In this document: piece after piece, positions 1,906 through 24,000 of the stretch
Layout: each line of letters opens with the position of its first letter
How positions within the stretch are numbered: position 1 is the stretch's first letter
Source: Halorubrum sp. BV1
GTDB taxonomy: Archaea > Halobacteriota > Halobacteria > Halobacteriales > Haloferacaceae
Direction of reading: 5' to 3'
Length of the DNA stretch: 24,000 nt
Assembly: GCF_000746205.1 (NCBI RefSeq)
Contig: NZ_JQKV01000001.1
Coordinates: 143,652 to 167,651, forward strand
The notes under the pieces: model-generated
The model's input: only the letters and a program-made list of their open reading frames with translations
Database searches by the model: none
What the model was told of the DNA's origin: nothing
Position numbers and translations under genes: made by a program

Positions 1906-4900
1906 ATGAGCGATCGGAGGGACCGCGCACTGACCGTGGCTGTGGGTCTCGTCGTCGCGTGCGTCCTCGCCGCGGCCGTCACGCCGGCGGCGGTCGCGGC
2001 CGGCCTCGAACCGATCGGCGGCACGGATGTCGCCGCCGATGGGAACGGTATCGGGGCGGGAGCGGACGACTCGATCGGCGACGAGACGACCGCACCGTCC
2101 GTCTCACACCCGGCCGCCGTCGACGGGGGCTCGCGCACCGACCGGAACGCGATCGGACCTGGACTCCGGTCGGCGAACGGGACGGTGGAGGTCGTCGTGC
2201 GGTTCGAGGATACCGCACAGATCGAACGGAGCCGGGCGAACGGAGGGGCCGGCGTCTCGACGGCCGACCTCAAAACGAACGCCGATGGGGCGCAGGCCGA
2301 GTTCGACCGGTTCGCGGCTGGTAACGGTGCGATCTCGGTAGACCGGGACTTCTGGCTCGCGAACGCGAAGCTGGTCACGGTCGACACCGACCGCGTGCCG
2401 ATCGACCGGCTCCTCGACGTTCCCGGCGTCGAGCGCGTCCACGAGAACTTCCGCGTCGAACTCGACACCGCGGCGGCGAGCGCGGGGGATGGCGGGTCCG
2501 GACCCACGGCCGGATCGCTCGACTCGCCGACGCCGACCGCCCAGACCGTCTCCACCGCGTCGGTCGACGCGACCTACGGCGTCGAGATGGTTCGCGCGCC
2601 CGAGGTGTGGGCGGAGTTCGACACTCGGGGTGGGGGCACGACGGTCGCCGTACTCGACACGGGTGTCGACCCCGACCATCCGGACCTGACGGTGAGCGGG
2701 TGGGCGGAGATCGACGAGAACGGGAACGTGATCGAGAACGACGACGGCCCGTATGACCTGAACGGCCACGGGACGCACGTCGCAGGGACGGTCGCCGGTG
2801 GCAACGCGAGCGGGACCGCGATCGGCGTCGCTCCCAACGCGTCGGTTCACGCCATCAAGGTGTTTCCTGACGACGATCGATCGACGACGTTCACGCGCAT
2901 TCTCGGCGGCATGGAACATGCGACGCAAGATTCGGAGGTGGACGTGCTCCAAATGAGTCTCGGAGCCGACGGATACTACTCGGAGTTCATCGATCCGGTC
3001 AGGAACGCTCGGAGTACCGGAAAGGTCGTCGTTGCGTCGTCGGGGAACACCGACACCGAACCGTCGAGTACCCCCGGAAACGTATACGACTCTCTCGCTG
3101 TCGGAGCCGTCGATTCGAACCGCGACGTCGCCTCCTTTTCTGGCGGCGAACGGATCAATACGAGCGACACATGGGGGAGCGACGCTCCCGCAGAGTGGCC
3201 CGACGAGTACGTCGTACCGGACGTGACGGGACCCGGCGTCGGCGTGGACTCGGCCGAACCCGGCGGCACCTACGGAACGAAATCAGGCACTTCGATGGCT
3301 GCGCCACACGTCTCCGGCGCCGTCGCTCTGATGATCTCGGCGAGCACGCGAGACGTCGGTGACGACGAGCTGTACGACACCCTCCGGGACACGGCCGACC
3401 ACCCCTCGGACGCCACGGACCCGGACGCGGACTACGGGACCGGGATCGTCGACGCGTACGCCGCGGTGTCGGCGATCACGGAACCGGATTCGAACTTGAC
3501 GGTCACGAGCTTCGAGGCACCCGCGGAGACCGCGCCGGGAGCGACGATCGAGGCGACCGCGACAATCAACAACACCGGCCTCGATCCGGGGGCTGGGACC
3601 GTCGACTACCGGTTCAACGGCACCGCTGGCGACAATCGAACCGTCTCTCTCGACTCCGGCGAGGAGACAACGGTGTCGTTCGAGTACGTCGTCCCCACCG
3701 ACACGCCGACGAACGCGACGTACGAGCACGGCGTGTACACCGACGACTCGAACGCGACCGCCGCCGTCGACGTCGTCGACACGGCGTTTTACGAGGTGAC
3801 GAACGTCTCCGCGCCCGCGATAGTCGAGCGGAACGCGACGCTCGAAGCGACGGCGAACGCGACGAACTGGGGCGTGATCGCCGGCGACAACCGAACCGTC
3901 TCGCTCCGACTGACGGACCCCGAAAACGAGAGCGACACGCGAACGCTCGACGACGCAAACGTCTCGCTCAACTCGGGCGACGCCGCGAGCGTGACGCTGA
4001 ACGGGACCGTCCCGGACGCGTTCGGCACCGGCGTGACGACGCTGTCGATCGCCTCGCCGGACGACGAGACGGCGGCCGGGATCCGCGTCGCCGCGGCCGT
4101 CGGCACGGTGAACGGCACGGTCACCGACGAAGCGACGGACGCGACGCTCGCGGACGTCGACGTCGTCGTCCGGAATGGGACCGAGGTCGTCGGCGAGGCG
4201 AGCACCGACGCGGGCGGAACGTACGCGGTCAACGTGCCGGCAGCGGAGCTGAACGTCACGGCGAGCAACGCGACGTACGCACCGGCGACCGCGACCGTCA
4301 ATCTGAGCGGCTCCGGGGACACCGCGACAGCGAACCTTTCTCTCTCGCTCCGGAACGGCACGCTCGCGGGCGTCGTCGGTGCGACCGACGGGCTGTCGGG
4401 GCCGACGGACGCGATCGTAACGGTCCAAAATGAGACGAACGCGACTGTGTCGACGGCGACGGCGACCGACGACGGGGCGTACGAGACGACCCTCAGACCA
4501 GGGACGTATAGCCTCTCTGCGAACGCGACGGACTTCGCCTCGGCGAACGAGACGGACGTGGTGATCGAGCCGAACCGTACGACCTCCCAGCCGATCGAAC
4601 TCGATCCGCTGCCCGCCACGCTCTCCGGCACGGTAACCGCGGCGGATGGGGGCGAGCCGATCGCGGGCGCGACGGTGACTGCCGGGACGGCGTCCAACAC
4701 GACCGATTCCGGTGGGTCGTACTCGCTTGAAACGGATCGCGGCGAGTACCGCGTGACCGCGTCGGCCGACGGGTACGCGGACGAGCGGCGAACGATCTCG
4801 TTGCCGGCGAACCGCTCTGTGAGCGCGAACTTCGCGCTCTCGCTCCCGCCGGAGTTTGCCATTACCGAGTTCACCGGGCCGAGTGAGATCGAACGGGGCT

Positions 4901-5535
4901 CCAGCGGCGACTTCGCGGTCACGATCGAGAACGCCGGCGGATCGCGCGGGGACGTGACCGTCTCGCTCGCTGTCTCTCCGAGCGGAAGCTCACAGTCACG
5001 CACGTTCTCCGGCGTGCCAGCGGGCGAGAACCGGACGACGACGTTCTCGATCTCGGTTGCGGACGACGCCTCGACCGGCCAGTACGACGCGACCGCGTCG
5101 ACGCCCCACGACACGCGGACCCGTTCGTTCTCGGTCGTGAGCGGAGACGACGAGACGACGGCCGGTGGCGGCGGTGGCGGCGGTGGAGGCGGAGGCGGAG
5201 GCGGCGGAATCGCTCCCCCCACCACCGAAGAACCGGACGAGCCGGAGAACACCACCGCGAACGGGACGGCGGCCCCGGACGACCCCGGTCGAGACGCGTC
5301 CGAGAACACGCCGGCAGACGCCACCGACGGAGCGGACGGGACGGACGACTCGGCCGGGGGCGCAAGCGACAGCGACGGCGGAGCCGAAACCGAGAGCGGA
5401 TCTGGTGACGTGGACGGTGGGGGCGGGTCGGGTGGCGGAACGCCGACGACCGACGGGAGTGTCCCCGGGTTCGGTGGCGCGGTCGGCGTTACCGCACTGC
5501 TCGCGGCTGCGGTGCTCGCGAGGCGGGACGCGTGA
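1906..5535 (+). CDS. Large secreted, cell-surface-anchored subtilisin-like serine protease (peptidase S8, halolysin-like). Architecture: signal peptide, I9 propeptide, S8 catalytic domain, CARDB and carboxypeptidase-regulatory-like repeats, Gly/acidic linker, PGF-CTERM anchor.
   Basis: N-terminus MSDRRDRALTVAVGLVVACVLAAAV is a signal peptide, possibly Tat. An I9-like propeptide follows (VEVVVRFED...VERVHENFRVEL). The catalytic triad motifs are VAVLDTGVD, HGTHVAGT and GTSMAAPHVSG. Repeated Ig-like modules follow (LTVTSFEAPAE..., YEVTNVSAP..., GTVNGTVTDEATDA..., GTLAGVVGATDG..., ATLSGTVTAADG..., FAITEFTGPSE...). The C-terminus is PGFGGAVGVTALLAAAVLARRDA. Confidence 0.9.
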   Translation: MSDRRDRALTVAVGLVVACVLAAAVTPAAVAAGLEPIGGTDVAADGNGIGAGADDSIGDETTAPSVSHPAAVDGGSRTDRNAIGPGLRSANGTVEVVVRFEDTAQIERSRANGGAGVSTADLKTNADGAQAEFDRFAAGNGAISVDRDFWLANAKLVTVDTDRVPIDRLLDVPGVERVHENFRVELDTAAASAGDGGSGPTAGSLDSPTPTAQTVSTASVDATYGVEMVRAPEVWAEFDTRGGGTTVAVLDTGVDPDHPDLTVSGWAEIDENGNVIENDDGPYDLNGHGTHVAGTVAGGNASGTAIGVAPNASVHAIKVFPDDDRSTTFTRILGGMEHATQDSEVDVLQMSLGADGYYSEFIDPVRNARSTGKVVVASSGNTDTEPSSTPGNVYDSLAVGAVDSNRDVASFSGGERINTSDTWGSDAPAEWPDEYVVPDVTGPGVGVDSAEPGGTYGTKSGTSMAAPHVSGAVALMISASTRDVGDDELYDTLRDTADHPSDATDPDADYGTGIVDAYAAVSAITEPDSNLTVTSFEAPAETAPGATIEATATINNTGLDPGAGTVDYRFNGTAGDNRTVSLDSGEETTVSFEYVVPTDTPTNATYEHGVYTDDSNATAAVDVVDTAFYEVTNVSAPAIVERNATLEATANATNWGVIAGDNRTVSLRLTDPENESDTRTLDDANVSLNSGDAASVTLNGTVPDAFGTGVTTLSIASPDDETAAGIRVAAAVGTVNGTVTDEATDATLADVDVVVRNGTEVVGEASTDAGGTYAVNVPAAELNVTASNATYAPATATVNLSGSGDTATANLSLSLRNGTLAGVVGATDGLSGPTDAIVTVQNETNATVSTATATDDGAYETTLRPGTYSLSANATDFASANETDVVIEPNRTTSQPIELDPLPATLSGTVTAADGGEPIAGATVTAGTASNTTDSGGSYSLETDRGEYRVTASADGYADERRTISLPANRSVSANFALSLPPEFAITEFTGPSEIERGSSGDFAVTIENAGGSRGDVTVSLAVSPSGSSQSRTFSGVPAGENRTTTFSISVADDASTGQYDATASTPHDTRTRSFSVVSGDDETTAGGGGGGGGGGGGGGGIAPPTTEEPDEPENTTANGTAAPDDPGRDASENTPADATDGADGTDDSAGGASDSDGGAETESGSGDVDGGGGSGGGTPTTDGSVPGFGGAVGVTALLAAAVLARRDA
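5164..5208 (+). repeat. Run of 15 consecutive glycine codons (GGN microsatellite) inside the protease gene
   Basis: ggt ggc ggc ggt ggc ggc ggt gga ggc gga ggc gga ggc ggc gga, in frame. It encodes G15 between the last Ig-like module and the acidic Thr/Asp/Gly-rich linker. Confidence 0.95.
5464..5532 (+). other. PGF-CTERM archaeosortase (ArtA) sorting signal
   Basis: A PGF tripeptide, then a hydrophobic helix (GGAVGVTALLAAAVLA), then a basic tail (RRDA), at the extreme C-terminus of the protease. Confidence 0.85.
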
Positions 5536-8510: not shown

Positions 8511-8923
8511 TATCGCTGAAGCGCGCGAGGCTTTCTCTTCGGGTCTCCTAACACCATCTGCGGGTCGTTCCGCTCCGAGACGTCGTACTGTTTCTGTCCG
8601 CCCCTCCCGCCGTTGCTTGAGCGCTCGGTACGCTGTCCTAGGACGACTGTCGAGCGGTGTTTCCGTGTCTTCTCTTCGTTCGGCCTCGGCACGAACGGTT
8701 TCGACTTGGTCTGGTGACCATGCCTGATGGAACCCTTGCCACCCGACTCATCGCCGGCGGAATCGGTGTCTTTCAGTCGTTCTTGTCGACGTGACTGTCG
8801 GACCGAGCGTCGTCGAACCCGTCGTCGCCGCGTCTAGTTTCCGGGTCGCTTTCGGACTGCTCGCGGTCCACTGCCGGCGCGGCGGCACTCTGAATAACCG
8901 AACCCTCAGTGGCCGCCGGTATC

Positions 8924-8950
8924 AACAAAAGTTGAGACCGCGGATCTCAA
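8924..8950 (-). terminator. Candidate terminator of the long minus-strand operon (hairpin plus T-tract)
   Basis: Read on the minus strand: ttgaga-tccgcgg-tctcaa (6-bp stem, 7-nt loop), followed directly by cttttgtt. It lies about 108 nt downstream of the last ORF stop at 9058. Confidence 0.3.
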
Positions 8951-9057
8951 TGCATAGGTAGTCAGTCCAATCCTGTCTCTTTTGGCAGGTGATTTATGAA
9001 TGAGATTCTGTAGAGTACTTGGAGAACGAAACGCCCGAGAACTCAAGCGGAATATAC

Positions 9058-9739
9058 TCACTCCCAGGGTTTGGAGCGGGGCTTTGACGTGACAGATTCG
9101 TCGTCAAGCGCGCGAGTGGGGGCTATAGAGGCGTCCGAGAGTAACTCACAGGTCACGGAATGCCGCGTCAAAATCATCGTCTTCGAACCCGGTAGAGTCA
9201 ACATCTGCCTGTTCTTGGAGTCATCAATTTGTTCCACGAGTCGCCGGTATTCGTCATTCGGCTGGAGGTCTGACTCCGCTATCTCATTTTCAAGGACCGC
9301 CTTCGTCTGAAGCAACCGGTAGAGGTCGTCTACCGTTTCATCATACCGTTCCCGGGTTTGGCATTCGCTCGACCACGTCACGGATCTCGGCTTCCCCAAC
9401 CGGTTTGGTGATGTAGTCATCGAATCCCACCCCGATAACGTCGAAATCAGGTGTCACCGCCGAGACCATCACGACACGCGTTCCCATCTCTTGCTCACGG
9501 ATGCGCTTGAGCACCTCGTCACCAGACAGTCCAGGCATCCGCCGGTCCAAGAGGACAACATCGATCGTAGAATCAAAGATCTCGAGTGCCTCCTCTTCAT
9601 TATATGCGACCTCGACAAGATACTCATCCCGGAGCTATACAGCCATCAGATCGGCGAGGCCCTGATTATCGTCGACAATCAATACCCCTCCTGCGTTGCT
9701 CGATGTATCGTCACTTATCGGATTCCTCCGGGTCTGCAT
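9058..9739 (-). pseudogene. REC-HalX response regulator, disrupted by an in-frame TAG and a 1-nt frameshift
   Basis: My translation from the ATG at 9739 reads MQTRRNPISDDTSSNAGGVLIVDDNQGLADLMAV*LRDEYLVEVAYNEEEALEIFDSTIDVVLLDRRMPGLSGDEVLKRIREQEMGTRVVMVSAVTPDFDVIGVGFDDYITKPVGEAEIRDVVERM. The receiver signature residues are present (DD, LLD, S/T, K-P). The frame then stops at 9341. The HalX-like sequence (RERYDETVDDLYRLLQTKAVLENEIAESDLQPNDEYRRLVEQIDD) continues in another frame, the track ORF 9058..9420. The TAG is at 9635-9637. Confidence 0.75.
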
Positions 9740-12700
9740 CCTGCGTGTCGTCGGCTGTCCTCGACGAGGAATGAGGTTCGTCAGTGAACTCGACACCTGT
9801 GAATTCGAATCGCGCCCCGCCCGTACTACCGGAAGAGACAGTTACTTGCCAACCGTGAGCATCGGCGATCTGTTTCACGATATTCAGACCGAGACCCGTG
9901 CCCTGATCAGTCGTGTATCCCGGCTCGAAAAGCTGACCTCGGTCGCCTTCGGGGATGCCAGGGCCGTCGTCTTCGACGTAGAAGCCACGGTCTGAGTCAA
10001 GGTCTCCGATGGTGACAGCCACGTCCTCACCACCATGTTCGACCGCGTTTCGGAAGAGATTTTCTAGCAACTGTTTGAGCCGGGATCGGTCTGCCTGAAG
10101 TACGCTATCAGTCGTTGTGTGGATCTCGCTGTCGGTTGTTTCCACGTTCTGCCAACACTCATCGCTGAGAGCTTCGAGAGTGACTGCTTCGAAGTCCCCG
10201 ATGGCTTGTCCCGTCCGAAAGAGCGTTAATAAATCCTCGATGAGTGTCTCCATCCGCTCGTGCGCATGCTCGATCGCGTCGAGATGCTCGCTCTCACACT
10301 CTTTTTGAGCCTGCTGTCGCTCCCCTCGTGCAACGTTCAGCGGGTTCTGAAGGTCGTGTGACACGATGCTGGCAAAGTCGAACCGCTCGTTCCGGTGTTT
10401 GAGTTCCCGCACGTACTGTTTGCGTTCGGAAATATCGGGGCTGATTCCGATCATTCCGATAATCTCCCCATCCTCGTCACGGTACGGGTATTTGTTATCG
10501 AGGAAGACGTGCTCCTCGCCATCGATGAACCGGACCGTCTCCGCGGACATCTCCTCGCCAGACTCCATAACCTGCTTATCATCGGCACGAATGTCGGCTG
10601 CGCTTTCAGCGTCGAACAGGTCCTCGTCGTGTTTGCCGATAATCTCTTCGGGCGTATAACCGAACAGCTCAGCGCCGCTTTCATTAATGAACTGATAGTA
10701 GCCCTCTCTATCTTTGATATAGATCGCTTCAGACGTGTTCTGCACGATCGCCTCTAGTTGCCGGGTTTTCTCTGCTAATTTTTCTTCACGTTCGATGCGT
10801 TCGGAGATGTCCCGGAAGATGCCGTACGTGACTGGACCGTCCGGAAGCGGGACCGTCTCGACACTGATCTCGACTGGGACGTGGTCCCCGTTGTCGGTAA
10901 CTATATCGATGGGTGATCCATCGGGAAGTCGTCGCCTGGTTCCCCCCGTTTGAACGTGTTCCTCGAAGAGCTGCTGATAGAGGTCAGCCTGCTCGGAGGG
11001 ATGGAGCTCTGATTGATGCGAGCCGGTGATTTTGTCACTCGCCATCCCGAGCAAGGTTTCGGCAGCGTCGTTGACCTCGATAACTTCGCCCGTCTCGCCA
11101 TCGGCAACGAACACTGGATCCGGAGCCGCCCCAAGCAACGTTTCATACCGCTCTTTCAACTTTGAGAGTTCCTGTTCGCGCTCTTTGTGCTCGGAGATAT
11201 CCCGACAGACAATAAGATGCAAACCTGGGACGATATCATGTGTCACCGTCCACTCGACGATTCGTTCTGAACCATCCGGCCGAACCAACGTTGCAGTCTC
11301 GCGTTGCAGTCCGGAATCTCGATCATCTCTCGGAATATCACGGAACTCAAAACAATCAGTGGTAAATTCGTCGAACGATCGACCTACTACCTTTTCTTTT
11401 GGAAGACCAAAGAGGTTGGCGGTACTTTCATTCGCCCGGAGGGTCTGCCCCTCGTCGTCGACAATCATCAGCGTATCGGCTGTTTCCTCGAAGATACGCT
11501 GGAAGAGGTCTCCAGACTGCTGTCTGATCGGCACTATCTCGTTGGTATCGTCGCTCTCCGTCCCCTCTATGGACTGCGGGAGCGTTATTGTGATCGTCGT
11601 ACCTTCGTCGGAAACAGACGTTTCGATGTCTCCGCCGTGGCCCGTGACGACCCAATAGACCATCCAGAGACCGAGGCCTTCGCCGTGGATCAGCGGCTCT
11701 TCAGTTCCAGTTTCGAGTACCCGATATTCCTGTTCGGGGAGCCCTGGGCCATCGTCGGATATCTCTAATGTGATCGTTCCATGGTCGACTTCAGCGGAGA
11801 CGGTCACCCTGGGGGCGTCTGGGTGCTTGCACGCGTTTTCGATCAACTCGTGGAGCGCCGCTTTGAGGTTCTGATATCCCGATATTGGCACCTCATCTGG
11901 TCCAGTGACTTCTATCGAGGCTGCAGGATACTCGCCTTCGATATCCGCACTCACCTGACGGATCAACGTCATTACGTCGAACGATTGGCGTTCGACATTT
12001 TCCCCCAGGAAGACATCGAGTTCCGTCGCTTTCTCGGCGAGGGATACAATTCTGTCCATGGCGGAGATGACCTCACTTCCATCGATCGAATCGTCGTCGA
12101 GTTGGTCGACTATCATGTCCGTGTAGCCACGGATAACGTTGAACTCGTTGCGAATATTGTGTCGGAAGACTCTCAGCAGGACGGTGTTGAGCTGCTGTTG
12201 ACGGACGAGATTCTGTTCTCGTTTCTTTTGGTCGGTAATGTCGATGACGCCACCTCTGTAGCCCTTGATGGCTCCCTCGTCATCGGTGAGGGCGGTCACG
12301 CTGTCGGACACCCATCGAATCTCTCCATCAGCAGTTCGGACGCGATATTCGAACTGATCGAGTTCGCCGACCGACGTGAGGGTTTCAGAATACGTCGCAT
12401 ACGTGTCTGGATCCACAAATACCTCGTCTTCGATACTGTCTACCGCCGCGCACAGCTCCTCGCCACTCTCGTAGCCGAGCAGATCTGCAAACGCCGGATT
12501 CGCCATGGCATACTCGTCGAGTGTGGCAGTCGTCGTGTAGATGCCTTCGATTGCATTTTCAAAGAGCTGCTGATACTGTTCTTCCAGTTCCGAGGCGAGT
12601 TCCAGCGTGCCCCGGGTGGTTTTTTCCAGTTCTTCTTGCAGGGCTTCCTTTTCCTCAGTCCGTTGTTCCAATTGCATGGCTTCGATTTCGCGGCCGAGGA

Positions 12701-13181
12701 GGCGTGCAACCAGTTCGATGAACAGCTTCTCCTCGGTAGTAAATCCCTCCTCCCGAGGCGTTCGTTGGATAAAACAGACAGTCCCGTAGACCTCTCCACG
12801 CACGAACATCGTGGTTCCGAGATAACAATCGATGTCGTGTTCCTTGTAGGCCGGATCGTTTTGCCATCCCTGCTCTGGGGCATTCGAAATCGCAACGGGC
12901 GAGGGCTCCTGAACCGTATGGCGACAGTAGGTTTTGTCGCGGTCGAGCCTGGTTCCTTCCGGGAGCAGATCGGAATCATTGCCGACGCTGACAAGTATCT
13001 CGTCAGTTGTACTATCGTTGGGATGGCGCTGGATGTGGCCATTTGTGACTCCGAGATACTCTCTGCCTATTGCGAGGACGTGCCGTTGTTTCTCCTCTAA
13101 CGCCAATTCGTCATCATCCATCACCTCGTAGATCCGCTGGGTTGGTGGCGTTTTGTCCGCCGAGCCATTCTTAGTAGTCAT
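9711..13181 (-). CDS. Multidomain sensor histidine kinase with two complete transmitter modules. Order: GAF-like, coiled coil, PAS, HisKA/HATPase_c, three PAS, HisKA/HATPase_c.
   Basis: 1156 aa. GAF-like: TYCRHTV...CYLGTTMFVRGEVYGTVCFIQRTPRE. First H-box: LRVFRHNIRNEFNVIRGY (His341, codon 12159-12161), with N-box HELIENACKH, G1 DDGPGLP and G2 GEGLGLWMV. Three PAS-like segments follow (residues ~555-925). Second H-box: FASIVSHDLQNPLNVA (His942, codon 10356-10358), with ENLFRNAVEHGG, DDGPGIP and GTGLGLNIV. Confidence 0.9.
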   Translation of the reverse strand: MTTKNGSADKTPPTQRIYEVMDDDELALEEKQRHVLAIGREYLGVTNGHIQRHPNDSTTDEILVSVGNDSDLLPEGTRLDRDKTYCRHTVQEPSPVAISNAPEQGWQNDPAYKEHDIDCYLGTTMFVRGEVYGTVCFIQRTPREEGFTTEEKLFIELVARLLGREIEAMQLEQRTEEKEALQEELEKTTRGTLELASELEEQYQQLFENAIEGIYTTTATLDEYAMANPAFADLLGYESGEELCAAVDSIEDEVFVDPDTYATYSETLTSVGELDQFEYRVRTADGEIRWVSDSVTALTDDEGAIKGYRGGVIDITDQKKREQNLVRQQQLNTVLLRVFRHNIRNEFNVIRGYTDMIVDQLDDDSIDGSEVISAMDRIVSLAEKATELDVFLGENVERQSFDVMTLIRQVSADIEGEYPAASIEVTGPDEVPISGYQNLKAALHELIENACKHPDAPRVTVSAEVDHGTITLEISDDGPGLPEQEYRVLETGTEEPLIHGEGLGLWMVYWVVTGHGGDIETSVSDEGTTITITLPQSIEGTESDDTNEIVPIRQQSGDLFQRIFEETADTLMIVDDEGQTLRANESTANLFGLPKEKVVGRSFDEFTTDCFEFRDIPRDDRDSGLQRETATLVRPDGSERIVEWTVTHDIVPGLHLIVCRDISEHKEREQELSKLKERYETLLGAAPDPVFVADGETGEVIEVNDAAETLLGMASDKITGSHQSELHPSEQADLYQQLFEEHVQTGGTRRRLPDGSPIDIVTDNGDHVPVEISVETVPLPDGPVTYGIFRDISERIEREEKLAEKTRQLEAIVQNTSEAIYIKDREGYYQFINESGAELFGYTPEEIIGKHDEDLFDAESAADIRADDKQVMESGEEMSAETVRFIDGEEHVFLDNKYPYRDEDGEIIGMIGISPDISERKQYVRELKHRNERFDFASIVSHDLQNPLNVARGERQQAQKECESEHLDAIEHAHERMETLIEDLLTLFRTGQAIGDFEAVTLEALSDECWQNVETTDSEIHTTTDSVLQADRSRLKQLLENLFRNAVEHGGEDVAVTIGDLDSDRGFYVEDDGPGIPEGDRGQLFEPGYTTDQGTGLGLNIVKQIADAHGWQVTVSSGSTGGARFEFTGVEFTDEPHSSSRTADDTQDADPEESDK
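12222..12629 (-). repeat. Coiled-coil plus PAS cassette, copy A (paralogous to 14409..14816)
   Basis: LEKTTRGTLELASELEEQYQQLFENAIEGIYTTTATLDEYAMANPAFADLLGYESGEELCAAVDSIEDEVFVDPDTYATYSETLTSVGELDQFEYRVRTADGEIRWVSDSVTALTDDEGAIKGYRGGVIDITDQKK aligns without gaps to the kinase-2 segment. Most positions are identical. Confidence 0.85.
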
Positions 13182-13208
13182 CGGTTCAGGTCTCCCAGTA
13201 TGGTTTCG

Positions 13209-14969
13209 TCACCCATTATCCTCAGTGATAAGCAGGGGTGTGCCCCCACTGCCCGTGATTTCGAACCGTGCTCCACCGTCAGCTCCGTCCGTCACGTCAA
13301 TCTCCCACTGATGGGCTTCGACGATCCGCTTGACGATCGCCAGTCCGAATCCTGTTCCGCTCGAATTCGTTGTATATCCCTGCTCAAAGATGTCGTTCCG
13401 CGCCTCCGGCGGGATACCCGGTCCAGTGTCTTCGACGTAAAAGCCATCGTCCAACCGACCGACCGTGACGGTAACCGACTCACCACTGTGTTCGATGGCG
13501 TTCCGGAACAGATTTTCAAAGACTTCGACCAGCCGGCTTCGATCCGCTTCGAGGTGCCCGAGTGATTCAGTCCGGAGGGTGGCATTGGCTCTTGAAATTG
13601 AGTTCCACGCGTCGCGAGCGGTCTCTTCGAGGCGAATTGATTCGGTTTCCCCGACTGCCTTCCCTTGCCGTGAGAGTTCGAGAACATCCTCGATGATGGC
13701 TTCGATCCTATCAAGGGCTGTTTTTGCCGGGTCGAGATTGGTACTGTCACATTCCGCCTCTGCGAGGGCCACGCGTCCGTTTGCCACGTTCAGTGGATTC
13801 CGTATGTCATGAGAGATAATACTCGCAAACTCATCAAGACGGTCGCGTTCCCGGCGGAGCGTCGTTTCAGCCCGAATTTGGTAGAGGGCAGACGTCACAT
13901 GGTTGGCAAGCAAGTTGAGGAGTTCCTCATCATGGTCGTCGAATGCGTCTGGTTCGGTCGCAAACACCTGAATCAGACCTACGTCGTCAAGTGAGACGCC
14001 TAACAGTGCACGAAGATCCTTGCGTGCGTCCTCCCTCAGTCCCGGGGTTGCAGTTTTGGGGGAGTTGGATGAGTTATCTACGTTTACATCTAGTGGTGCC
14101 GTTCCTCGCATCTCGGTTACGTCATCCACGCGAAGAACCTCGTCAGATCGATAGGTTCGCCCGGCAAATCCAGTGTCAACTGGGACCGGATTGTACTGCT
14201 CCAGCGATTCATCACGCGAACTAGCGGTCGGGACAAGGTGATCGACTTCCGCAACGGCAAGATACACACTGGCACCGGGAAAGAGGGCGGCAGCACCGTC
14301 GACTGCACGCTGGTAAATTGCTGCTTCTGTGTCGGCATCAGCGATGTCAGTTGCAATCTCGTGAAGCTGAGTGACCTTGGACATGTGCTCCCGCAGTCGG
14401 TCTATCGCCTCTTTCCGCTCCGTGATGTCGATGACTCCACCTCTGAACCCGCTCATATCCTCCTGACTATCGGAGAGGGCGGTCACGTTATCCGAGACCC
14501 ACCGTATCTCGCCATCAACTGTTTTAACTCGATATTCGAACCGCTCAATCTCGCCCATAGACGATAGTAGCTCTGAACACGTTTCGTATCGGTCGGCGTC
14601 CACAAAGACGTCCTCCGCAATACTATCCACTGCCTCACAGAGTTTTTCACCGCTCTCGTAGCCGAGCAGGTCTGCAAACGCGGGGTTCGCCATGACATAC
14701 TCGTCAAGTGTGTCGGTGGTCGTGTAGATACCCTCTGCCGCCGTCTCGAAGAGCTGTTGGTACTGCTCTTCAAGCTCTGAGGCGAGTTGCAGCGTGCCTT
14801 GCGTCGTTTTCTCCAGTTCCGTGTGCAAGACCTCGTTTTCCTCGCGTAATCGTTCGTTTTCTGTCTGGAGTTCCCGCACTCGGTGGTTGATCGACTCCAG
14901 TGTGGGTTCTACCTCTGGGTCGGCACATGCTTTCGCGTTCTCCAAGAGTTGCTCGATCTGGTCAGTCAT
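13209..14969 (-). CDS. Sensor histidine kinase (coiled coil, PAS, GAF, HisKA, HATPase_c)
   Basis: The preferred start is the ATG at 14969 (MTDQIEQLLENAK...). It overlaps the upstream gene's end by 8 nt (ATGACTGA). The track start at 15002 is an alternative. The PAS is as in the repeat above. GAF-like region: IYQRAVDGAAALFPGASVYLAV...LLGVSLDDVGLIQVFATEPDAFDDHDEELLNLLANHV. H-box: EFASIISHDIRNPLNVA. HATPase_c: ENLFRNAIEHSG, EDTGPGIP, GTGFGLAIV. Confidence 0.9.
   Translation of the reverse strand: MTDQIEQLLENAKACADPEVEPTLESINHRVRELQTENERLREENEVLHTELEKTTQGTLQLASELEEQYQQLFETAAEGIYTTTDTLDEYVMANPAFADLLGYESGEKLCEAVDSIAEDVFVDADRYETCSELLSSMGEIERFEYRVKTVDGEIRWVSDNVTALSDSQEDMSGFRGGVIDITERKEAIDRLREHMSKVTQLHEIATDIADADTEAAIYQRAVDGAAALFPGASVYLAVAEVDHLVPTASSRDESLEQYNPVPVDTGFAGRTYRSDEVLRVDDVTEMRGTAPLDVNVDNSSNSPKTATPGLREDARKDLRALLGVSLDDVGLIQVFATEPDAFDDHDEELLNLLANHVTSALYQIRAETTLRRERDRLDEFASIISHDIRNPLNVANGRVALAEAECDSTNLDPAKTALDRIEAIIEDVLELSRQGKAVGETESIRLEETARDAWNSISRANATLRTESLGHLEADRSRLVEVFENLFRNAIEHSGESVTVTVGRLDDGFYVEDTGPGIPPEARNDIFEQGYTTNSSGTGFGLAIVKRIVEAHQWEIDVTDGADGGARFEITGSGGTPLLITEDNG
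14409..14816 (-). repeat. Coiled-coil plus PAS cassette, copy B (paralogous to 12222..12629)
   Basis: LEKTTQGTLQLASELEEQYQQLFETAAEGIYTTTDTLDEYVMANPAFADLLGYESGEKLCEAVDSIAEDVFVDADRYETCSELLSSMGEIERFEYRVKTVDGEIRWVSDNVTALSDSQEDMSGFRGGVIDITERKE. The similarity is also visible in the DNA (compare 12590-12640 with 14780-14830). Confidence 0.85.
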
Positions 14970-15999
14970 TGGTATCGGTGACGACGAGTGCAGTAGCGTC
15001 ATCCTCCGATTTGCCGTACTGTTTGAGCAACCGGTTCGCTATCGCGCCAGCTGGGTCGTCCCCTCCATCTCGTATGTCGTCCCAGTCCCATCTCGTCGAA
15101 ATACCATCAGAATACAACACCATCGTGAATCCTGGATCCCACTCTCGGGTGACGACAGATGCTCCTGGATTATTGCCCCCCACGACGCCCCGTCGGACGA
15201 TCAGCCCCGTCCATTCCGGGCCAGACAACTTCACATTGATATTTCCTATGTTGGCAAAGGTGAGCGTATGCTCCCTCCAGTCGAACTTCGCGAGTGCCAT
15301 CACGACGCCGCGTGTCCCCTTGCACGCGCGGTCAGCTCCGCGAAAGATTGACGCAAGCGGCCGCTCGACGTGTGACTCGACGTAGCTACGAGCTGTGGTC
15401 GCTGCTTTGTGCGCCCGGGATCCATGCCCGAGGCCGTCGATAACGCCCACCAGCGTCTTGTCATTCCACGTCTTGGCGATGAAGGCGTCACCGTTGACCT
15501 GCTCGGTGGAGATGGCCCGTGATGCAGCCCCAATTGAGGCGGGATTCGGCTTCGTTGTCTCATATTCCGGGATTAGCCACCGATCTGCGACCAGTCGCGT
15601 TCCAGCCTCGGGGCCTTCCGGGGTCGTGACCTCGAGTTCGTCCATCGTTTGATTCACGATGGAGAGGCCGAGCCCGAGCGAGCCAGCGGTCGAAGATCCC
15701 GTCGTGAATGCCGCTTCAATATCTTGGATCCCGGGGCCGGAATCTTCTGATTCAAGCCGAATTCCCGTCTGTGAATCTGCCGCAATTGTTTTGATCGAAA
15801 GTGTTCCGCCCCCGGCGTGTTTATCTAGGTTCGTCGCCAGTTCCGTCGCAACGAGTCCGAGTTCAGAGCTGATATCGTCCTCAAACCCTATCTCGGCTGC
15901 CGTCTGTTCTACCGTATGTTGTGCCCTGGTGGCATCAGCTGACTCGGAAATATCGATGTCGGTTTCAGTAGTAACAACGAGGTCGTCCGGTCTGCTCAT
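14962..15999 (-). CDS. ATP-binding SpoIIE/PP2C-family protein phosphatase: an N-terminal RsbT/RsbW-like HATPase domain fused to an RsbX-like PP2C domain
   Basis: True start is the ATG at 15999 (MSRPDDLVVTTETDIDISES...). The track ORF's 110-aa upstream extension to 16329 overlaps the rsbT-like gene out of frame. N-terminal domain: VATELATNLDKHAGGGTL, SEDSGPGI, TGSSTAGSLGLGLSIV. C-terminal domain: NGDAFIAKTWNDKTLVGVIDGLGHGSRAH...ANIGNINV...VLYSDGIS, the SpoIIE/RsbX-type motifs. Confidence 0.85.
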   Translation of the reverse strand: MSRPDDLVVTTETDIDISESADATRAQHTVEQTAAEIGFEDDISSELGLVATELATNLDKHAGGGTLSIKTIAADSQTGIRLESEDSGPGIQDIEAAFTTGSSTAGSLGLGLSIVNQTMDELEVTTPEGPEAGTRLVADRWLIPEYETTKPNPASIGAASRAISTEQVNGDAFIAKTWNDKTLVGVIDGLGHGSRAHKAATTARSYVESHVERPLASIFRGADRACKGTRGVVMALAKFDWREHTLTFANIGNINVKLSGPEWTGLIVRRGVVGGNNPGASVVTREWDPGFTMVLYSDGISTRWDWDDIRDGGDDPAGAIANRLLKQYGKSEDDATALVVTDTND

Positions 16000-16018
16000 C
16001 GTGATCGGCTCCGTCCTG

Positions 16019-16423
16019 TCATGAGTGCCACTTTGTGATCGTGATTGTCGTGCCCTCTCCTTGTTCCGTGTCGATCTCCATGTCGTCCATGAGCGTCTGT
16101 GTTCCGGACAGCCCACGGCCCAACCCATCCGACGTCGAAAATTCCCCCTCAAGCGCTGCGTCGGGATCGTCGATGCCTGGCCCCTGATCCTCGAAGATGA
16201 CCGTGAGACCGGTTCGATCGTCGTCGGTGATATGCTTCCATTCCATCGTTCCCTCACCGGCGTAAAGGTGGATGTTCCGGGCGAGTTCCGAGACAGCCGT
16301 GACGATCCGCGTGATATCCGTGGTGTCAAACCCGACTTGCTCAGCGGCGTCTCGGGCTTGTTGACGGGTCTGGAGCACGTCAGTTTCGGACTGGATCTCT
16401 ACTCGACCGGAGCCCTCGCTCAT
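16019..16423 (-). CDS. rsbT: RsbT-like anti-sigma-regulatory-factor-type serine/threonine protein kinase (HATPase_c_2)
   Basis: MSEGSGRVEIQSETDVLQTRQQARDAAEQVGFDTTDITRIVTAVSELARNIHLYAGEGTMEW...IFEDQGPGIDDPDAALEGEFSTSDGLGRGLSGTQTLMDDMEIDTEQGEGTTITITKW. This closely follows my memory of B. subtilis RsbT (ISELARNIYLYAG, DQGPGI, GFSTSGGLGAGLPG, LMDEF, GEGT.I...KW). Its ATG at 16423 overlaps the upstream stop as ATGA. Confidence 0.85.
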   Translation of the reverse strand: MSEGSGRVEIQSETDVLQTRQQARDAAEQVGFDTTDITRIVTAVSELARNIHLYAGEGTMEWKHITDDDRTGLTVIFEDQGPGIDDPDAALEGEFSTSDGLGRGLSGTQTLMDDMEIDTEQGEGTTITITKWHS

Positions 16424-16788
16424 GAGGGATCCCAACTTACTCCCAACATTTCGAGTGCATGATCGGTCGACCGGGCAGTCTCAACTGCATCCAACCGGTA
16501 TCCGAGTTCTGCAGCGGTCACAGCGACTTCCGGGCGGATCCCGGCAATCACTGTCGTCCCGCCCATGAGTTCGATCATCTGAGCCGTCTCCGAGATATGC
16601 CGGGCGAAAAACGAATCCATCAGTTGCACGTTGGACACGTCGAGGATGACGCCCTCAGGCTGGCTGGTTTCCATTTCTGCCAAGATCGCCTCTTGTAACT
16701 CGTCGACCACCGGGTCAGTCGGGTTGTTGGGAAACGTCCCCAACAGGATATCGTAGATTCGAACGACATTCGCGCTACCAGCCGACAT
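16420..16788 (-). CDS. rsbS: RsbS-like single-STAS-domain stressosome scaffold protein
   Basis: 122 aa: VVRIYDILLGTFPNNPTDPVVDELQEAILAEMETSQPEGVILDVSNVQLMDSFFARHISETAQMIELMGGTTVIAGIRPEVAVTAAELG. It parallels B. subtilis RsbS as I recall it (VIDLTSVDMIDSFIAK...[26 protein letters not shown]). The phospho-acceptor-equivalent Ser is at residue 59 (codon 16612-16614). Confidence 0.85.
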   Translation of the reverse strand: MSAGSANVVRIYDILLGTFPNNPTDPVVDELQEAILAEMETSQPEGVILDVSNVQLMDSFFARHISETAQMIELMGGTTVIAGIRPEVAVTAAELGYRLDAVETARSTDHALEMLGVSWDPS

Positions 16789-17567
16789 CAGTCGAACGAT
16801 ACCCCCGCAATATCGAGCGCGGTTTTGAGGCCTTCCTGAAGCGACGATTGTGTTTCCACGTCGAATCCAATTCCGAGCTGCACGAGTGTCTGGGAGATCT
16901 CTGGATTGAGTCCCGTGATGATTGTCTGACCGCCCATCAGTTTGACGGCGTGGATCGTATCGATAAGATGTTGGGCGGTCTGGGTGTCAACCGCCTCCGC
17001 ACCGGTAATATCGATGATCGCGACAGTGGCTTCCGTTTCTGAAATCCGTTCCAGGAGCTTCTCAGTGAAATCTTGGGCCTGTGCCGAGTCGAGTTTCCCG
17101 ATGATCGTCGAGAGCAAAATCCCGTCCCAGACCTCGACGATTGGCACTGATCGCTTGGCGAGTTCATCGGCCAACGACTCTTGAATCTCTCGTTGCCGAT
17201 TGCGCTCGGTGATGTTCCGACCGATACTGGCGATCGCTTTGAGACTTTCATCCTCGTCTTCAACGGGAGTCCACTGGAACTCGTACGGGAGCCGCTCTCC
17301 CGTCTTCGTTTCGAGAACAGTCCCAAGCGTGACGGCCGTCCGATCATTGGTGATAGTCTTTATAGCCGTGCGCACGTCCCCGCGCTCTCCCTCGGGGACG
17401 AGATCGGCGGGGTTGAGGTCCCCAATCTCGTTGTTGTCGTATCCTGTGACGCTTGTGAATCGAGCGTTCCACTCCACGTACTCGCCGCCGGGAGTGAATA
17501 CGTAGAACAGGTCATCAAGCGAATTGACAGCGTCTGCGAGTAACCCAGGATCCGAAGAATTGATCAT
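16788..17567 (-). CDS. rsbR: RsbR-like stressosome sensor protein (N-terminal PAS domain plus C-terminal STAS domain)
   Basis: The ATG at 17567 gives MINSSDPGLLADAVNSLDDLFYVFTPGGEYVEWNARFTSVTGY... (PAS). The STAS half is SVPIVEVWDGILLSTIIGKLDSAQAQDFTEKLLERISETEATVAIIDITGAEAVDTQTAQHLIDTIHAVKLMGGQTIITGLNPEISQTLVQLGIGF. That is RsbR-like, including the VDT and SQT threonines. Its stop overlaps the rsbS-like ATG by 1 nt (TGATG at 16786-16790). Confidence 0.85.
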   Translation of the reverse strand: MINSSDPGLLADAVNSLDDLFYVFTPGGEYVEWNARFTSVTGYDNNEIGDLNPADLVPEGERGDVRTAIKTITNDRTAVTLGTVLETKTGERLPYEFQWTPVEDEDESLKAIASIGRNITERNRQREIQESLADELAKRSVPIVEVWDGILLSTIIGKLDSAQAQDFTEKLLERISETEATVAIIDITGAEAVDTQTAQHLIDTIHAVKLMGGQTIITGLNPEISQTLVQLGIGFDVETQSSLQEGLKTALDIAGVSFD

Positions 17568-17670
17568 GGATACCAATTTATCCCCCTGGTTGATATAACC
17601 TCACGCTACTTATTTGGTATTAATTTAATCCATCACTAAATACATAACCTTCCGTTGAGAGCGATTATCT
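17568..17670. promoter_or_regulatory. Divergent AT-rich promoter region between the rsbR-like operon and the Bat-type regulator gene
   Basis: 103 bp. On the minus strand, TTATATCA (complement of 17591-17598) lies ~25-30 nt upstream of the ATG at 17567. On the plus strand, taaataca (about 17637-17644) lies ~27-30 nt upstream of the ATG at 17671. There is also an inverted repeat: ataccaa (17570-17576) and ttggtat (17614-17620). Confidence 0.45.
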
Positions 17671-19308: not shown

Positions 19309-19532
19309 GTTATCGACAGGGCGAAGACGGGAACCTGTCCGGATGCCCCCGACGGGCGATCTATTGGAAAACGCCCCATACGGGGTGACAGAGCCAGCAG
19401 ATCCCGGATGTTCTTGAGGCAAACACAATTTCACTACCACTGGTGCCACCGACACAGGCTTCACGATGAGCCGTCTTCCGGACAATTGCGACAACCACCT
19501 ATAGCGATTGCCCTGTCTACGACTCGACGCCG

Positions 19533-21104: not shown

Positions 21105-21410
21105 GCAGGAATCGGGTAGTAGACTGCTCTATCCGTGATAGAGCGTCGTCTAAGTGGCAACGCTACCGAAAGTTTCGAAAAAACCGCCCACATAGTAGGA
21201 AATCCAACAAGAATGGCCGTTTGGAGAGCGATCTGAAGCAGATTCCACTCATCAATTCAGTCGGAACCACGCATCATAGCCCCGCTAAACCCGCTATAGT
21301 CTCAACTTCCAAGTATCAAAAGTTAATATCGCGAAATACGGTTTATTTGATCCGGGCTGACCAGAATTCTGACCACCCAGCCAGTCGAAATTCGTCGGTA
21401 CGTCCCGAGT

Positions 21411-22445: not shown

Positions 22446-22815
22446 CGACGAGCGCGTATCCCCCTCGCCGGCCGTTGTATTTGATGCGGTTCCGATCCTG
22501 CAACTCGTCGAGTGCGTCCTCTAAGCGATCTTCGAAGTCGCCGCGCAGCGCGTCGACGAGTTCGTCCCACGACTGCGGTCCGTCAGCAAGAACCCGTTCC
22601 ACCTCTGTTTCGAGGTCGTGACTCCCGGGGGTTTCGTCCGTGGAAGCGGTCTCCTCGGTGCTCGACGGTTCCGAGAGAGAAAATCCACGTCTCCCGGCCT
22701 GTACCATCGTTCTGACGAACTCGCTTTGCGACATGTCCAGCTCGTTCGCGTGAGTCTGCCACCGATCTTTCTGCTCGGCGGGCACGTACGTTTTCACTGA
22801 ACGGCGATCACTCAT
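22438..22815 (-). CDS. Small DNA-binding protein (ribbon-helix-helix-like N-terminus, winged-helix-like C-terminus), co-transcribed with the integrase
   Basis: The ATG at 22815 gives MSDRRSVKTYVPAEQKDRWQTHANELDMSQSEFVRTMVQAG (CopG/RHH-like). An acidic linker follows, then WDELVDALRGDFEDRLEDALDELQDRNRIKYNGRRGGYALV. An 8-nt overlap (ATGAGTAG) joins it to the integrase start. Confidence 0.65.
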   Translation of the reverse strand: MSDRRSVKTYVPAEQKDRWQTHANELDMSQSEFVRTMVQAGRRGFSLSEPSSTEETASTDETPGSHDLETEVERVLADGPQSWDELVDALRGDFEDRLEDALDELQDRNRIKYNGRRGGYALVDE

Positions 22816-22848
22816 CTCGATGTACCGTTTTGCGGCCGGTACCTTCAA

Positions 22849-23998: not shown

Positions 23999-24000
23999 CG

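What the first reader, a model, noticed from the sequence alone, without database searches (positions are those of the whole stretch)
9711..13181. A single 1156-aa polypeptide carries two complete histidine-kinase transmitter modules in tandem
Kinase 1 contains two transmitters.
- The internal transmitter spans residues ~330-536 (nt ~11574-12194). Its H-box is VFRHNIRNEF, with the N, G1 and G2 boxes ELIENACKH, DDGPGLP and GEGLGLWMV.
- After three more PAS-like domains comes a second transmitter at residues ~930-1130 (nt ~9792-10394). Its H-box is SIVSHDLQNPL, with ENLFRNAVEHGG, DDGPGIP and GTGLGLNIV.

The two H-boxes belong to different haloarchaeal styles (RHNIRN versus SHDLxNPL). There is no stop codon or frameshift between the halves, so the protein looks like an in-frame fusion of two kinases. 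Hybrid kinases usually add REC or HPt domains, not a second DHp/CA unit. This protein could integrate two signals or phosphorylate two partners.
Basis: seen in the sequence. Interest (0 to 1): 0.65.

Follow-up and report, generated by a model that had tools for sequence, protein, structure and literature searches.

The report
Haloarchaeal sensor kinase with two kinase cores
One 1156-residue protein of a salt-loving archaeon carries two complete, apparently working histidine-kinase units in series; this layout is very rare in bacteria, but here it belongs to a recurrent haloarchaeal family that I did not find described in the papers I could search.

Summary
ORF 9711-13181 (minus strand) is open for 1156 aa and reads GAF - coil/PAS1 - [DHp1+CA1] - disordered linker - PAS2-PAS3-PAS4 - [DHp2+CA2].

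- Both modules look catalytically intact. T1 (RHNIRN class) scores 67.7 bits on HATPase_c. Its AlphaFold model matches whole DHp-CA cores (HK853, WalK, EnvZ). His341 and the N, G1 and G2 residues are invariant in relatives.
- Both modules are under similar purifying selection (dN/dS 0.26 and 0.21 against an ~89-90% identical relative).
- It is not an assembly artefact. An independent metagenome contig reads straight through the T1-PAS2 junction.
- At least 17 cluster representatives among the best 120 full-length hits, and about 22 of the 150 closest T1 hits, share the layout.
- The internal T1 modules form essentially one clade.
- Unfused sensor-T1 and PAS-T2 genes lie 3-20 nt apart on other haloarchaeal replicons, which fits an old stop-codon-loss fusion.
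- The gene lies in a low-GC mobile island, behind an RsbR/S/T/X-like cassette. Its downstream REC-HalX regulator is broken here.

Function is untested. Verdict: a real, undescribed variant of a known kind, of moderate interest. This scan's earlier notes on the same window cover the neighbouring genes but not the tandem layout, and a word search of notes on other genomes found no tandem-transmitter protein.

The parts
9711..13181 (-). Whole tandem-transmitter sensor kinase gene, 1156 aa
   Evidence: Single ORF. Domain scan. In the full-length model all nine domains are folded, mean pLDDT 77.2.
12678..13100 (-). GAF sensor domain (residues 28-168)
   Evidence: Pfam GAF 1.8e-09 and GAF_2. Conserved at the N-terminus of most family members.
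12222..12641 (-). Coiled coil + PAS1 (residues 181-320), a cassette shared with the neighbouring kinase
   Evidence: PAS_3 at 227-308. 74% identical over 140 aa to residues 59-198 of the 597-aa kinase at 13209-15002.
11982..12212 (-). DHp1 (residues 324-400), helical hairpin with His341 in RHNIRN
   Evidence: Pfam gives only weak hits (SPOB_a E 0.014, HisKA E 0.045). phmmer aligns it to the DHp of KdpD and EnvZ with His341 on the phospho-His. AF2 shows helices 316-359 and 369-393. R340, H341 and N345 are invariant.
11562..11981 (-). CA1 (residues 401-540), ATP-binding domain of transmitter 1
   Evidence: HATPase_c 67.7 bits, profile positions 5-109 of 111. N449, D476, G478, G480, G502 and G504 are invariant. 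Foldseek hits HK853, WalK and EnvZ with probability 1.0. dN/dS 0.22.
11520..11561 (-). Acidic, variable linker between CA1 and PAS2 (residues 541-554; low-confidence stretch 538-559)
   Evidence: pLDDT 31-40 in the full-length model. Variable in the family alignment. Continuous in L031.
10416..11519 (-). PAS2, PAS3 and PAS4 sensor array (residues 555-922)
   Evidence: Pfam PAS_4, PAS_9 and PAS with four stretches. Local mapping. L031 has one extra in-frame PAS after residue 666.
10182..10415 (-). DHp2 (residues 923-1000), HisKA type with His942 in SHDLQNPL
   Evidence: Pfam HisKA 45.2 bits. PAS4 runs into it through a continuous helix 918-961.
9777..10181 (-). CA2 (residues 1001-1135), ATP-binding domain of transmitter 2
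   Evidence: HATPase_c 82.1 bits. dN/dS 0.16.
9146..9739 (-). Broken REC-HalX response-regulator gene directly downstream; its start overlaps the kinase stop by 29 nt
   Evidence: Response_reg 75 bits when read through the TAG. HalX 4.5e-12 in the neighbouring frame. Lesions against the intact L031 copy: TGG->TAG at 9637-9635, +1 near 9361, -1 near 9221.
13209..15002 (-). Neighbouring ordinary kinase (coil-PAS-GAF-HisKA-HATPase_c, 597 aa); absent from this position in L031
   Evidence: Pfam. Paralogy to the tandem kinase. In L031 the phosphatase gene is followed directly by the tandem-kinase homolog.
14962..17576 (-). Upstream RsbR/S/T/X-like cassette: PAS-STAS (16788-17576), STAS (16420-16788), HATPase_c_2 (16019-16435), HATPase_c_2+SpoIIE (ORF 14962-16329)
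   Evidence: Pfam. The same gene order stands upstream of both Halodesulfurarchaeum tandem kinases.

Best explanation
This is a soluble, cytoplasmic sensor kinase built from two self-contained sensor-transmitter units on one chain.

- Unit 1 is GAF - coiled coil - PAS1. It runs through a continuous helix into DHp1 (phospho-acceptor His341, RHNIRN class) and CA1.
- Unit 2 is PAS2-PAS3-PAS4. It runs through a continuous helix into DHp2 (His942, HisKA class) and CA2.
- The units are joined only by a roughly 20-residue acidic, disordered linker.

Shown: both cores have the full kinase fold and all ATP-binding and His motifs. Both are conserved and under purifying selection. The layout is a conserved family trait and not an artefact.

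Inferred: each unit dimerises through its own DHp and autophosphorylates its own His in response to its own sensor domains. Both pass phosphate to receiver proteins. Ancestrally the receiver was the REC-HalX regulator encoded just downstream, which is intact in the close relative L031. The protein would then merge two sets of intracellular cues. A third cue may come from the RsbR/S/T/X-like module encoded upstream.

The architecture most likely arose long ago by loss of the stop codon between an adjacent sensor-T1 kinase gene and a PAS-T2 kinase gene. In this genome the adjacent regulator is a pseudogene, so the kinase must now signal to a paralogous REC-HalX or another receiver, or it has recently become an orphan.
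For: - One ORF with all motifs in place.
- Two HATPase_c matches, and HisKA for T2.
- T1 aligns end to end with the KdpD, EnvZ and KinB cores, with His341 on the phospho-His.
- T1 model pLDDT 84.7; Foldseek hits whole DHp-CA cores with probability 1.0.
- H341, N449, D476, G478, G480, G502 and G504 are invariant in 17-23 relatives.
- In the full-length model every domain is folded, the linker 538-559 has pLDDT 31-40, and PAS1->DHp1 and PAS4->DHp2 are continuous helices.
- dN/dS is 0.26 for T1 and 0.21 for T2 at dS ~0.29, against L031.
- 17 tandem relatives among the 120 best hits. About 22 of the 150 closest T1 cluster representatives are tandem.
- On the T1 tree there are 9 internal/terminal changes against 63 when labels are shuffled. 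The window's T1 sits in a clade that is about 92% internal.
- Unfused adjacent gene pairs exist elsewhere.
- An intact REC-HalX stands downstream in L031.
- The same upstream cassette is found in Halodesulfurarchaeum.
Against: - No biochemistry exists for this protein, nor, to my knowledge, for the RHNxRN kinase class.
- T1 has Asn at H+1. HisKA kinases need Asp or Glu there for autokinase activity (Willett & Kirby 2012, PMC3510030). The Asn is class-wide, also in stand-alone kinases, so its meaning is open.
- The cognate-looking regulator is broken here, and the closest relative's kinase copy carries two 1-nt deletions. The system may therefore be decaying.
- Many family members lack T2 altogether, so T2 is dispensable for the family's core function.
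- The AF2 models are monomers, so dimer geometry is not addressed.
Confidence: 0.7

Rival explanations
1. Division of labour: the two cores act on the same regulator with opposite or unequal roles. For example, T2 (H-D-x-x-N) is the main kinase, while T1 (H-N-x-x-N) acts mainly as a phosphatase, a phosphate sink or a regulatory ATP sensor. This would give a push-pull device on one chain.
For: T1 lacks the acidic H+1 residue that HisKA kinases need specifically for kinase activity. It keeps the H+4 Asn needed for phosphatase activity. One REC-HalX gene follows the kinase in L031.
Against: Asn at H+1 is the rule for the whole T1 class, including about 84 of 97 ordinary C-terminal kinases. These include the majority kinase class of this genome, which presumably autophosphorylates. 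The ATP-binding residues of CA1 are invariant. The HisKA rule may not transfer to this DHp class.
Confidence: 0.15
2. T1 is a degenerate pseudokinase, kept only as a dimerisation or scaffold module within one long sensor whose only output is T2.
For: Pfam does not recognise a DHp in T1 above threshold. T1 is internal, which is an unusual place for an output module.
Against: All catalytic motifs are invariant across the family. The model has a full DHp-CA fold. dN/dS for T1 (0.26) is no higher than for PAS2 (0.37) or DHp2 (0.33). Many complete relatives have T1 as their only kinase core.
Confidence: 0.07
3. The gene is a functionless remnant in a decaying mobile island; the open frame is simply not yet broken.
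For: Low-GC island with a transposase and an integrase. The adjacent REC-HalX has three lesions. L031's kinase copy has two frameshifts. No ortholog in the 24 other species of the genus that were searched.
Against: 3.47 kb is open with every domain intact. dN/dS is 0.22 over dS 0.29. The upstream cassette genes are intact. Intact REC-HalX paralogs exist in the genome.
Confidence: 0.06
4. Assembly or sequencing artefact: two adjacent kinase genes were wrongly joined, or a stop or frameshift was missed near 11500-11600.
For: None found. Reads could not be inspected.
Against: L031, assembled independently from another sample and about 89% identical, is continuous and in one frame from T1 through PAS2 to PAS3. 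Dozens of homologs from NCBI, JGI, ENA and Logan have the same order.
Confidence: 0.02

Closest known systems
Non-hybrid two-transmitter ('TT') histidine kinases counted by Williams & Whitworth 2010 (PMC3018481)
   Same: Two transmitter modules in one polypeptide and no receiver domain.
   Different: That census found only 2 among 15,704 non-hybrid kinases and described no family. Here the layout defines a recurrent haloarchaeal family, with dozens of 50%-identity clusters. It combines two different DHp classes, with 2-7 PAS domains between them.
Hybrid kinases with two transmitters plus receivers (TRTR and TRTTRT proteins of myxobacteria, PMC4603909), and eukaryotic 'dual HKs' of Basidiomycota, Amoebozoa and Klebsormidium (PMC6324907)
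   Same: Two HisKA/HATPase cores on one chain. Function largely obscure there too.
   Different: Those carry REC domains after the cores, which suggests internal phosphorelays. This protein has no REC or HPt domain.
Ordinary haloarchaeal cytoplasmic multi-PAS/GAF kinases (Galperin et al. 2018, PMC5847659)
   Same: Soluble, PAS/GAF-rich, of either the RHxxRN or the HisKA class. A REC-HalX regulator is the neighbour.
   Different: The census text does not mention tandem transmitters. Here one kinase of each class is fused in series.
Vibrio-type rsbRSTX stressosome modules with downstream two-component proteins (V. vulnificus VvD1/VvD2, PMC9237108)
   Same: An RsbR/RsbS/RsbT/RsbX-like gene row directly followed by a sensor kinase and a response regulator.
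   Different: The host is an archaeon, the kinase has two cores, the regulator is REC-HalX, and no RsbU_N-like domain was detected by Pfam. The functional link is untested in both systems.
Adjacent unfused T1-class and T2-class kinase genes, e.g. Haloarcula sp. GH36 plasmid WP_324760914/WP_324760915 and Hrr. lacusprofundi pHLAC01 HLAC_RS16085/16090
   Same: The same order, sensor-T1 then PAS/sensor-T2, co-directional and 3-20 nt apart.
   Different: They are separate genes with their own stop and start, and they are not orthologs (T1 scores 120-145 bits against 468 for self).

Membership tests
Class I (HisKA-type) histidine kinase transmitter - module T2 | HisKA DHp with H-box His, followed by HATPase_c with N, G1, F and G2 boxes | tested here: met
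   HisKA 45.2 bits (cut-off 26.9) and HATPase_c 82.1 bits. Motifs SHDLQNPL, ENLFRNAVEH, DDGPGIP, LFEPGYT and GTGLGL are present.
Histidine kinase transmitter - module T1 (haloarchaeal RH[N/D]xRN class) | Two-helix DHp hairpin carrying a conserved His at the position of the phospho-acceptor | tested here: met
   Aligns to KdpD and EnvZ with His341 on their phospho-His. AF2 shows a hairpin. His341 is invariant. The Pfam DHp models are sub-threshold.
Histidine kinase transmitter - module T1 (haloarchaeal RH[N/D]xRN class) | Bergerat-fold CA domain with the Mg/ATP-binding Asn, DxGxG and GxGxG | tested here: met
   HATPase_c 67.7 bits over profile positions 5-109 of 111. N449, D476, G478, G480, G502 and G504 are invariant. 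Foldseek matches HK853, WalK and EnvZ.
Histidine kinase transmitter - both modules | ATP-dependent autophosphorylation on His and transfer to a receiver Asp | not testable with these tools
   Needs biochemistry. For T1 the non-acidic H+1 residue is an open point.
Hybrid histidine kinase / phosphorelay kinase | REC and/or HPt domain on the same polypeptide | tested here: not met
   No Response_reg or Hpt hit at E <= 0.1 in Pfam.
Haloarchaeal [GAF/PAS]-T1-(PAS)n-[T2] family (defined here) | T1-class core in an internal position, followed by a PAS array; T1 falls in the 'internal' clade | tested here: met
   Architecture map. The T1 tree puts the window in a clade of 77-86 tips, about 92% internal, SH-aLRT 76-84.
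Stressosome (RsbRST[X]) output module | Encoded directly downstream of RsbR-, RsbS-, RsbT- and RsbX-like genes in one direction | tested here: met
   Pfam on the upstream ORFs. The same layout is seen for P0006 and P0007, and L031 carries the end of the phosphatase gene. It is not general: P0012, P0015, P0025 and P0026 lack the cassette.
Stressosome (RsbRST[X]) output module | Physical or phosphorylation control of the kinase by the RsbT-like protein | not testable with these tools
   No interaction data. Even in V. vulnificus no RsbT-VvD1 interaction was shown (PMC9237108).

The most novel reading that the evidence does not exclude
The two cores are not redundant. They would form a single-chain push-pull or two-channel device at the output of an archaeal stressosome-like module. 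One core would phosphorylate, and the other (T1, with H-N-x-x-N) would mainly dephosphorylate or buffer the same REC-HalX regulator. Alternatively each core would address a different receiver. Each core would be gated by its own GAF/PAS sensors. This would be a mode of signal integration not described for prokaryotic two-component systems.
Probability: 0.15. Interest if true: 0.7.

Novelty: new variant of a known kind. Interest (0 to 1): 0.45.

Why it matters
Sensor kinases almost always carry a single catalytic core. A second core without any receiver domain was found in only 2 of 15,704 non-hybrid kinases surveyed in 2010. This protein belongs to a conserved haloarchaeal family in which two cores of different classes, each with its own sensor domains, are kept intact and under selection.

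That makes a long-standing design question testable in a natural system. Can one polypeptide run two independent phosphorylation channels, and are they used for integration (two inputs, one regulator), for branching (two regulators) or for kinase/phosphatase opposition?

The finding also ties the poorly understood HalX regulators and the archaeal RsbRSTX-like cassette to a defined kinase. It also corrects a gene call that truncates the GAF domain.

Tried and rejected
- **Read support at the junction.** I replaced this check with the independent contig L031.
- **Pfam and NCBIfam naming of DHp1.** Only sub-threshold SPOB_a and HisKA hits came back. PDB sequence alignment and structure prediction resolved it.
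- **Full-length ortholog in the same genus.** None in the 24 other species genomes searched. The gene is island-borne.
- **Look-up of P0002 (Halanaeroarchaeum plasmid).** It was not on record. I found it through the plasmid collection instead, but it lacks T2.
- **Is a separate T2 gene encoded after T2-less relatives?** No, for P0025 and P0026.
- **Asn at H+1 as a mark of internal, possibly kinase-dead T1.** Rejected as a discriminator: it is equally common in ordinary C-terminal T1-class kinases.
- **Internal promoter or start for a separate C-terminal kinase.** The CDS has no TATA-like motif. The only candidate starts are a GTG at residue 550 and an ATG at 572, which lies inside PAS2. This is weak evidence only.
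- **Literature.** Searches for tandem or dual transmitter kinases in haloarchaea found no description.
- **Earlier notes of this scan, searched by words.** None concerned a two-transmitter protein.

Full report
**1. Observation**

The window holds one ORF at 9711-13181 on the minus strand. It is 1156 aa long with no stop or frameshift.

Pfam finds:
- a GAF domain (28-166);
- four PAS domains;
- HATPase_c twice: residues ~435-536 score 67.7 bits when the module is scanned alone, and 1031-1128 score 82.1 bits;
- HisKA (45 bits) only in front of the second HATPase_c.

No REC or HPt domain is present.

The layout is GAF - coiled coil/PAS1 - T1 (324-540) - linker - PAS2 - PAS3 - PAS4 - T2 (923-1135). 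The gene call held in the protein database (P0001, 1032 aa) starts at Met125 and truncates the GAF domain. The long start is supported by the GAF match and by the identical start in a close relative.

**2. Is the internal module a real kinase core?**

Pfam's DHp models give only sub-threshold hits for residues 324-400 (SPOB_a E 0.014, HisKA E 0.045). Other evidence shows the core is complete:
- T1 aligns over its whole length with the DHp-CA cores of KdpD, EnvZ and KinB in the PDB. His341 falls on their phospho-acceptor His.
- An AlphaFold2 model of residues 317-545, built with 16 relatives, has pLDDT 84.7 and pTM 0.77. It shows a two-helix hairpin followed by an alpha/beta sandwich.
- Foldseek matches that model to complete HK853, WalK, DivL, EnvZ and KinB cores over 215-246 columns, with probability 1.0.
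- R340, H341, N345, N449, D476, G478, G480, H499, G502, G504 and W506 are invariant in 17-23 relatives.

**3. Two kinase classes**

The window's genome (2.77 Mb, 42 contigs) has about 43 ORFs with a CA domain. About 20 have the RH[N/D]xRN H-box of T1, and about 14 have the SHDLRNPL HisKA H-box of T2. In every other ORF the T1-type module is C-terminal. This ORF is the only one with two full cores. The protein therefore joins one member of each of the two main haloarchaeal kinase classes.

**4. Not an artefact, and not unique**

- **Full-length search.** Among the 120 best hits, 17 other cluster representatives have an internal T1-type core plus a C-terminal T2-type core. Examples are two proteins of Halodesulfurarchaeum sp. 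HSR-GB, of 1498 and 1673 aa. The family layout is [GAF or PAS]-T1-(PAS)x2-7-[T2 or nothing].
- **Exhaustive T1 search.** A search with T1 alone against 1.84 billion representatives gave 474 hits below 1e-30.
  - Of the 49 closest clusters, 40 have T1 in an internal position.
  - About 19 of the top 150 are T1...T2, and three are T1...T1.
- **Tree of T1 modules.** On a tree of 191 T1 modules, the internal/terminal state changes only 9 times, against a mean of 63 with shuffled labels. The window's T1 sits in a clade of 77-86 tips that is about 92% internal (SH-aLRT 76-84; quick LG+G4 tree, midpoint root). Kinship inflates such contrasts, but the pattern fits one or few old origins.
- **T2-less members.** Complete relatives without T2 (P0025, P0026) are not followed by a separate T2 gene on the same strand. 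A few ~400-aa stand-alone GAF-T1 kinases are nested next to the window's T1.

**5. The closest relative**

L031 is a 4768-nt Logan contig from another sample. It is ~89-90% identical in DNA to window 13229-9152.

- **Gene order.** It carries the end of a SpoIIE-type gene, then the kinase homolog, then an intact REC-HalX gene.
- **Its three "genes" are frameshift pieces.** The kinase homolog is called as three genes only because of two single-base deletions relative to the window. These lie at CDS nt 863 in PAS1 and nt 2389 between PAS3 and PAS4.
- **The junction is continuous.** Neither deletion is at the T1/PAS2 junction. L031 reads through that junction in one frame, which excludes a misjoin at ~11550.
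- **An extra PAS.** L031 has one more in-frame PAS domain after residue 666.
- **Selection.** Pairwise dN/dS in the window's frame is 0.26 for T1 (DHp1 0.31, CA1 0.22), 0.21 for T2 (DHp2 0.33, CA2 0.16) and 0.22 overall, at dS ~0.29. Both cores have been under purifying selection of similar strength.

**6. Origin**

Each half exists elsewhere as an ordinary kinase.
- Frames of 520-540 aa in the window's own genome and in three genomes of the same genus match residues 8-538.
- Frames of 619-734 aa in relatives match residues ~540-1135.

The unfused adjacent arrangement also exists.
- On the Haloarcula sp. GH36 plasmid, a 740-aa sensor-T1 gene is followed after 3 nt by a 473-aa PAS-T2 gene. The same two-piece match appears on four other megaplasmids.
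- On Halorubrum lacusprofundi pHLAC01, a GAF-PAS-T1 gene is followed after 20 nt by a T2-type kinase gene.

Loss of one stop codon would give the tandem layout. These pairs are analogues, not orthologs.

**7. Structure and likely mechanism**

The full-length model has mean pLDDT 77.2. Its pTM of 0.31 is as expected for beads on a string. All nine domains fold. PAS1 runs into DHp1 (helix 316-359) and PAS4 into DHp2 (helix 918-961) through continuous helices, which is the usual signalling-helix connection. Residues 538-559 between CA1 and PAS2 have pLDDT 31-40 and are variable in the family.

I therefore read the protein as two autonomous sensor-kinase units tethered by a flexible linker. Each unit is gated by its own sensors and autophosphorylates its own His.

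- **Shown:** the fold, the motifs, their conservation and the selection.
- **Inferred:** kinase activity, dimer geometry and partners.

One caveat concerns T1. [quoted passage not shown] This Asn is the rule for the whole T1 class: 86 of 91 internal modules and 84 of 97 terminal ones. It does not single out the internal module, but it keeps a kinase/phosphatase division of labour open as a rival.

**8. Context**

- **The island.** GC drops from ~0.68 to ~0.55 at about 8.6 kb. The low-GC part holds, on the minus strand: PAS-STAS, STAS, an RsbT-like HATPase_c_2, HATPase_c_2+SpoIIE, a 597-aa ordinary kinase, the tandem kinase and a REC-HalX gene. It also holds a divergent Bat-type regulator, a DDE transposase and a tyrosine integrase.
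- **The same cassette elsewhere.** The same STAS / STAS / HATPase_c_2 / SpoIIE row stands directly upstream of both Halodesulfurarchaeum tandem kinases, near mobile-element genes. Other family members lack it. This resembles Vibrio-type rsbRSTX modules with downstream two-component genes (PMC9237108).
- **The broken regulator.** The REC-HalX gene is broken here. It has TGG->TAG at 9637-9635, a +1 near 9361 and a -1 near 9221, compared with the intact L031 copy. Intact REC-HalX paralogs exist elsewhere in the genome; the closest is 51% identical.
- **The extra kinase.** The 597-aa kinase is absent from this position in L031. It shares a 140-aa coil-PAS cassette with the tandem kinase, 74% identical.

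**9. What is known, and the verdict**

- Williams & Whitworth 2010 found two transmitters in 2 of 15,704 non-hybrid kinases and in 51 of 4,650 hybrid kinases (PMC3018481).
- Myxobacterial TRTR/TRTTRT proteins (PMC4603909) and eukaryotic dual HKs (PMC6324907) carry receivers.
- The archaeal census of Galperin et al. 2018 does not mention tandem transmitters in its main text.
- I found no paper describing this haloarchaeal family. Its members are annotated only as 'PAS domain S-box protein'.

My verdict is that this is a real feature and a new variant of a known kind. The interest is moderate. The architecture is rare in general and conserved here, but nothing yet shows that it works differently from two ordinary kinases tied together.

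Noticed in passing
window 9146-9739 (-): The REC-HalX response regulator directly downstream of the kinase is a pseudogene. Against an intact copy in L031 it has a Trp codon turned into TAG (9637-9635), a +1 insertion near 9361 and a compensating -1 deletion near 9221.
   Followed up: yes
L031:363-4203 (Logan contig, SRR16248214): The closest relative shows the opposite pattern. Its REC-HalX is intact, but its kinase homolog has two single-base deletions, so it is called as three genes. It also has one extra in-frame PAS domain. I could not tell real decay from contig errors.
   Followed up: partly
window 13209-15002 (-) and 12222-12641 (-): The neighbouring 597-aa kinase shares a 140-aa coiled-coil+PAS cassette with the tandem kinase (74% identical). 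It is missing from this position in L031, so it was inserted here or deleted there.
   Followed up: partly
window 14962-17576 (-); L023 and L025 3816-6017: An RsbR/RsbS/RsbT/RsbX-like (stressosome-type) cassette precedes the kinase. The same cassette, duplicated, precedes both tandem kinases of Halodesulfurarchaeum sp. HSR-GB, next to conjugation and transposase genes. In the window the phosphatase carries an extra HATPase_c_2 domain.
   Followed up: partly
window ~8600-24000: A low-GC (~0.55 against ~0.68) accessory region with a DDE transposase (19533-21104) and a tyrosine integrase (21411-22445). No ortholog of the kinase was found in the 24 other species of the genus that were searched.
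   Followed up: partly
P0025, P0026, P0002 (loci L028, L029): Complete relatives have a kinase core near the N-terminus followed only by 2-5 PAS domains and no second core. This is an unusual 'output before sensors' order with no obvious explanation.
   Followed up: partly
P0121, P0122, P0126: Some relatives carry two cores of the same RHxxRN class (T1...T1) instead of T1...T2.
   Followed up: no
window 9711-13181 (-), residues 1-124: The gene call stored in the public protein collection starts at Met125 (1032 aa) and cuts the GAF domain in half. The 1156-aa form fits the domain and the relative's start.
   Followed up: yes
window 1906-5535 (+): A large secreted subtilase (Peptidase_S8 with CARDB, CarboxypepD_reg repeats and a PGF-CTERM anchor) lies in the high-GC part of the window.
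   Followed up: no
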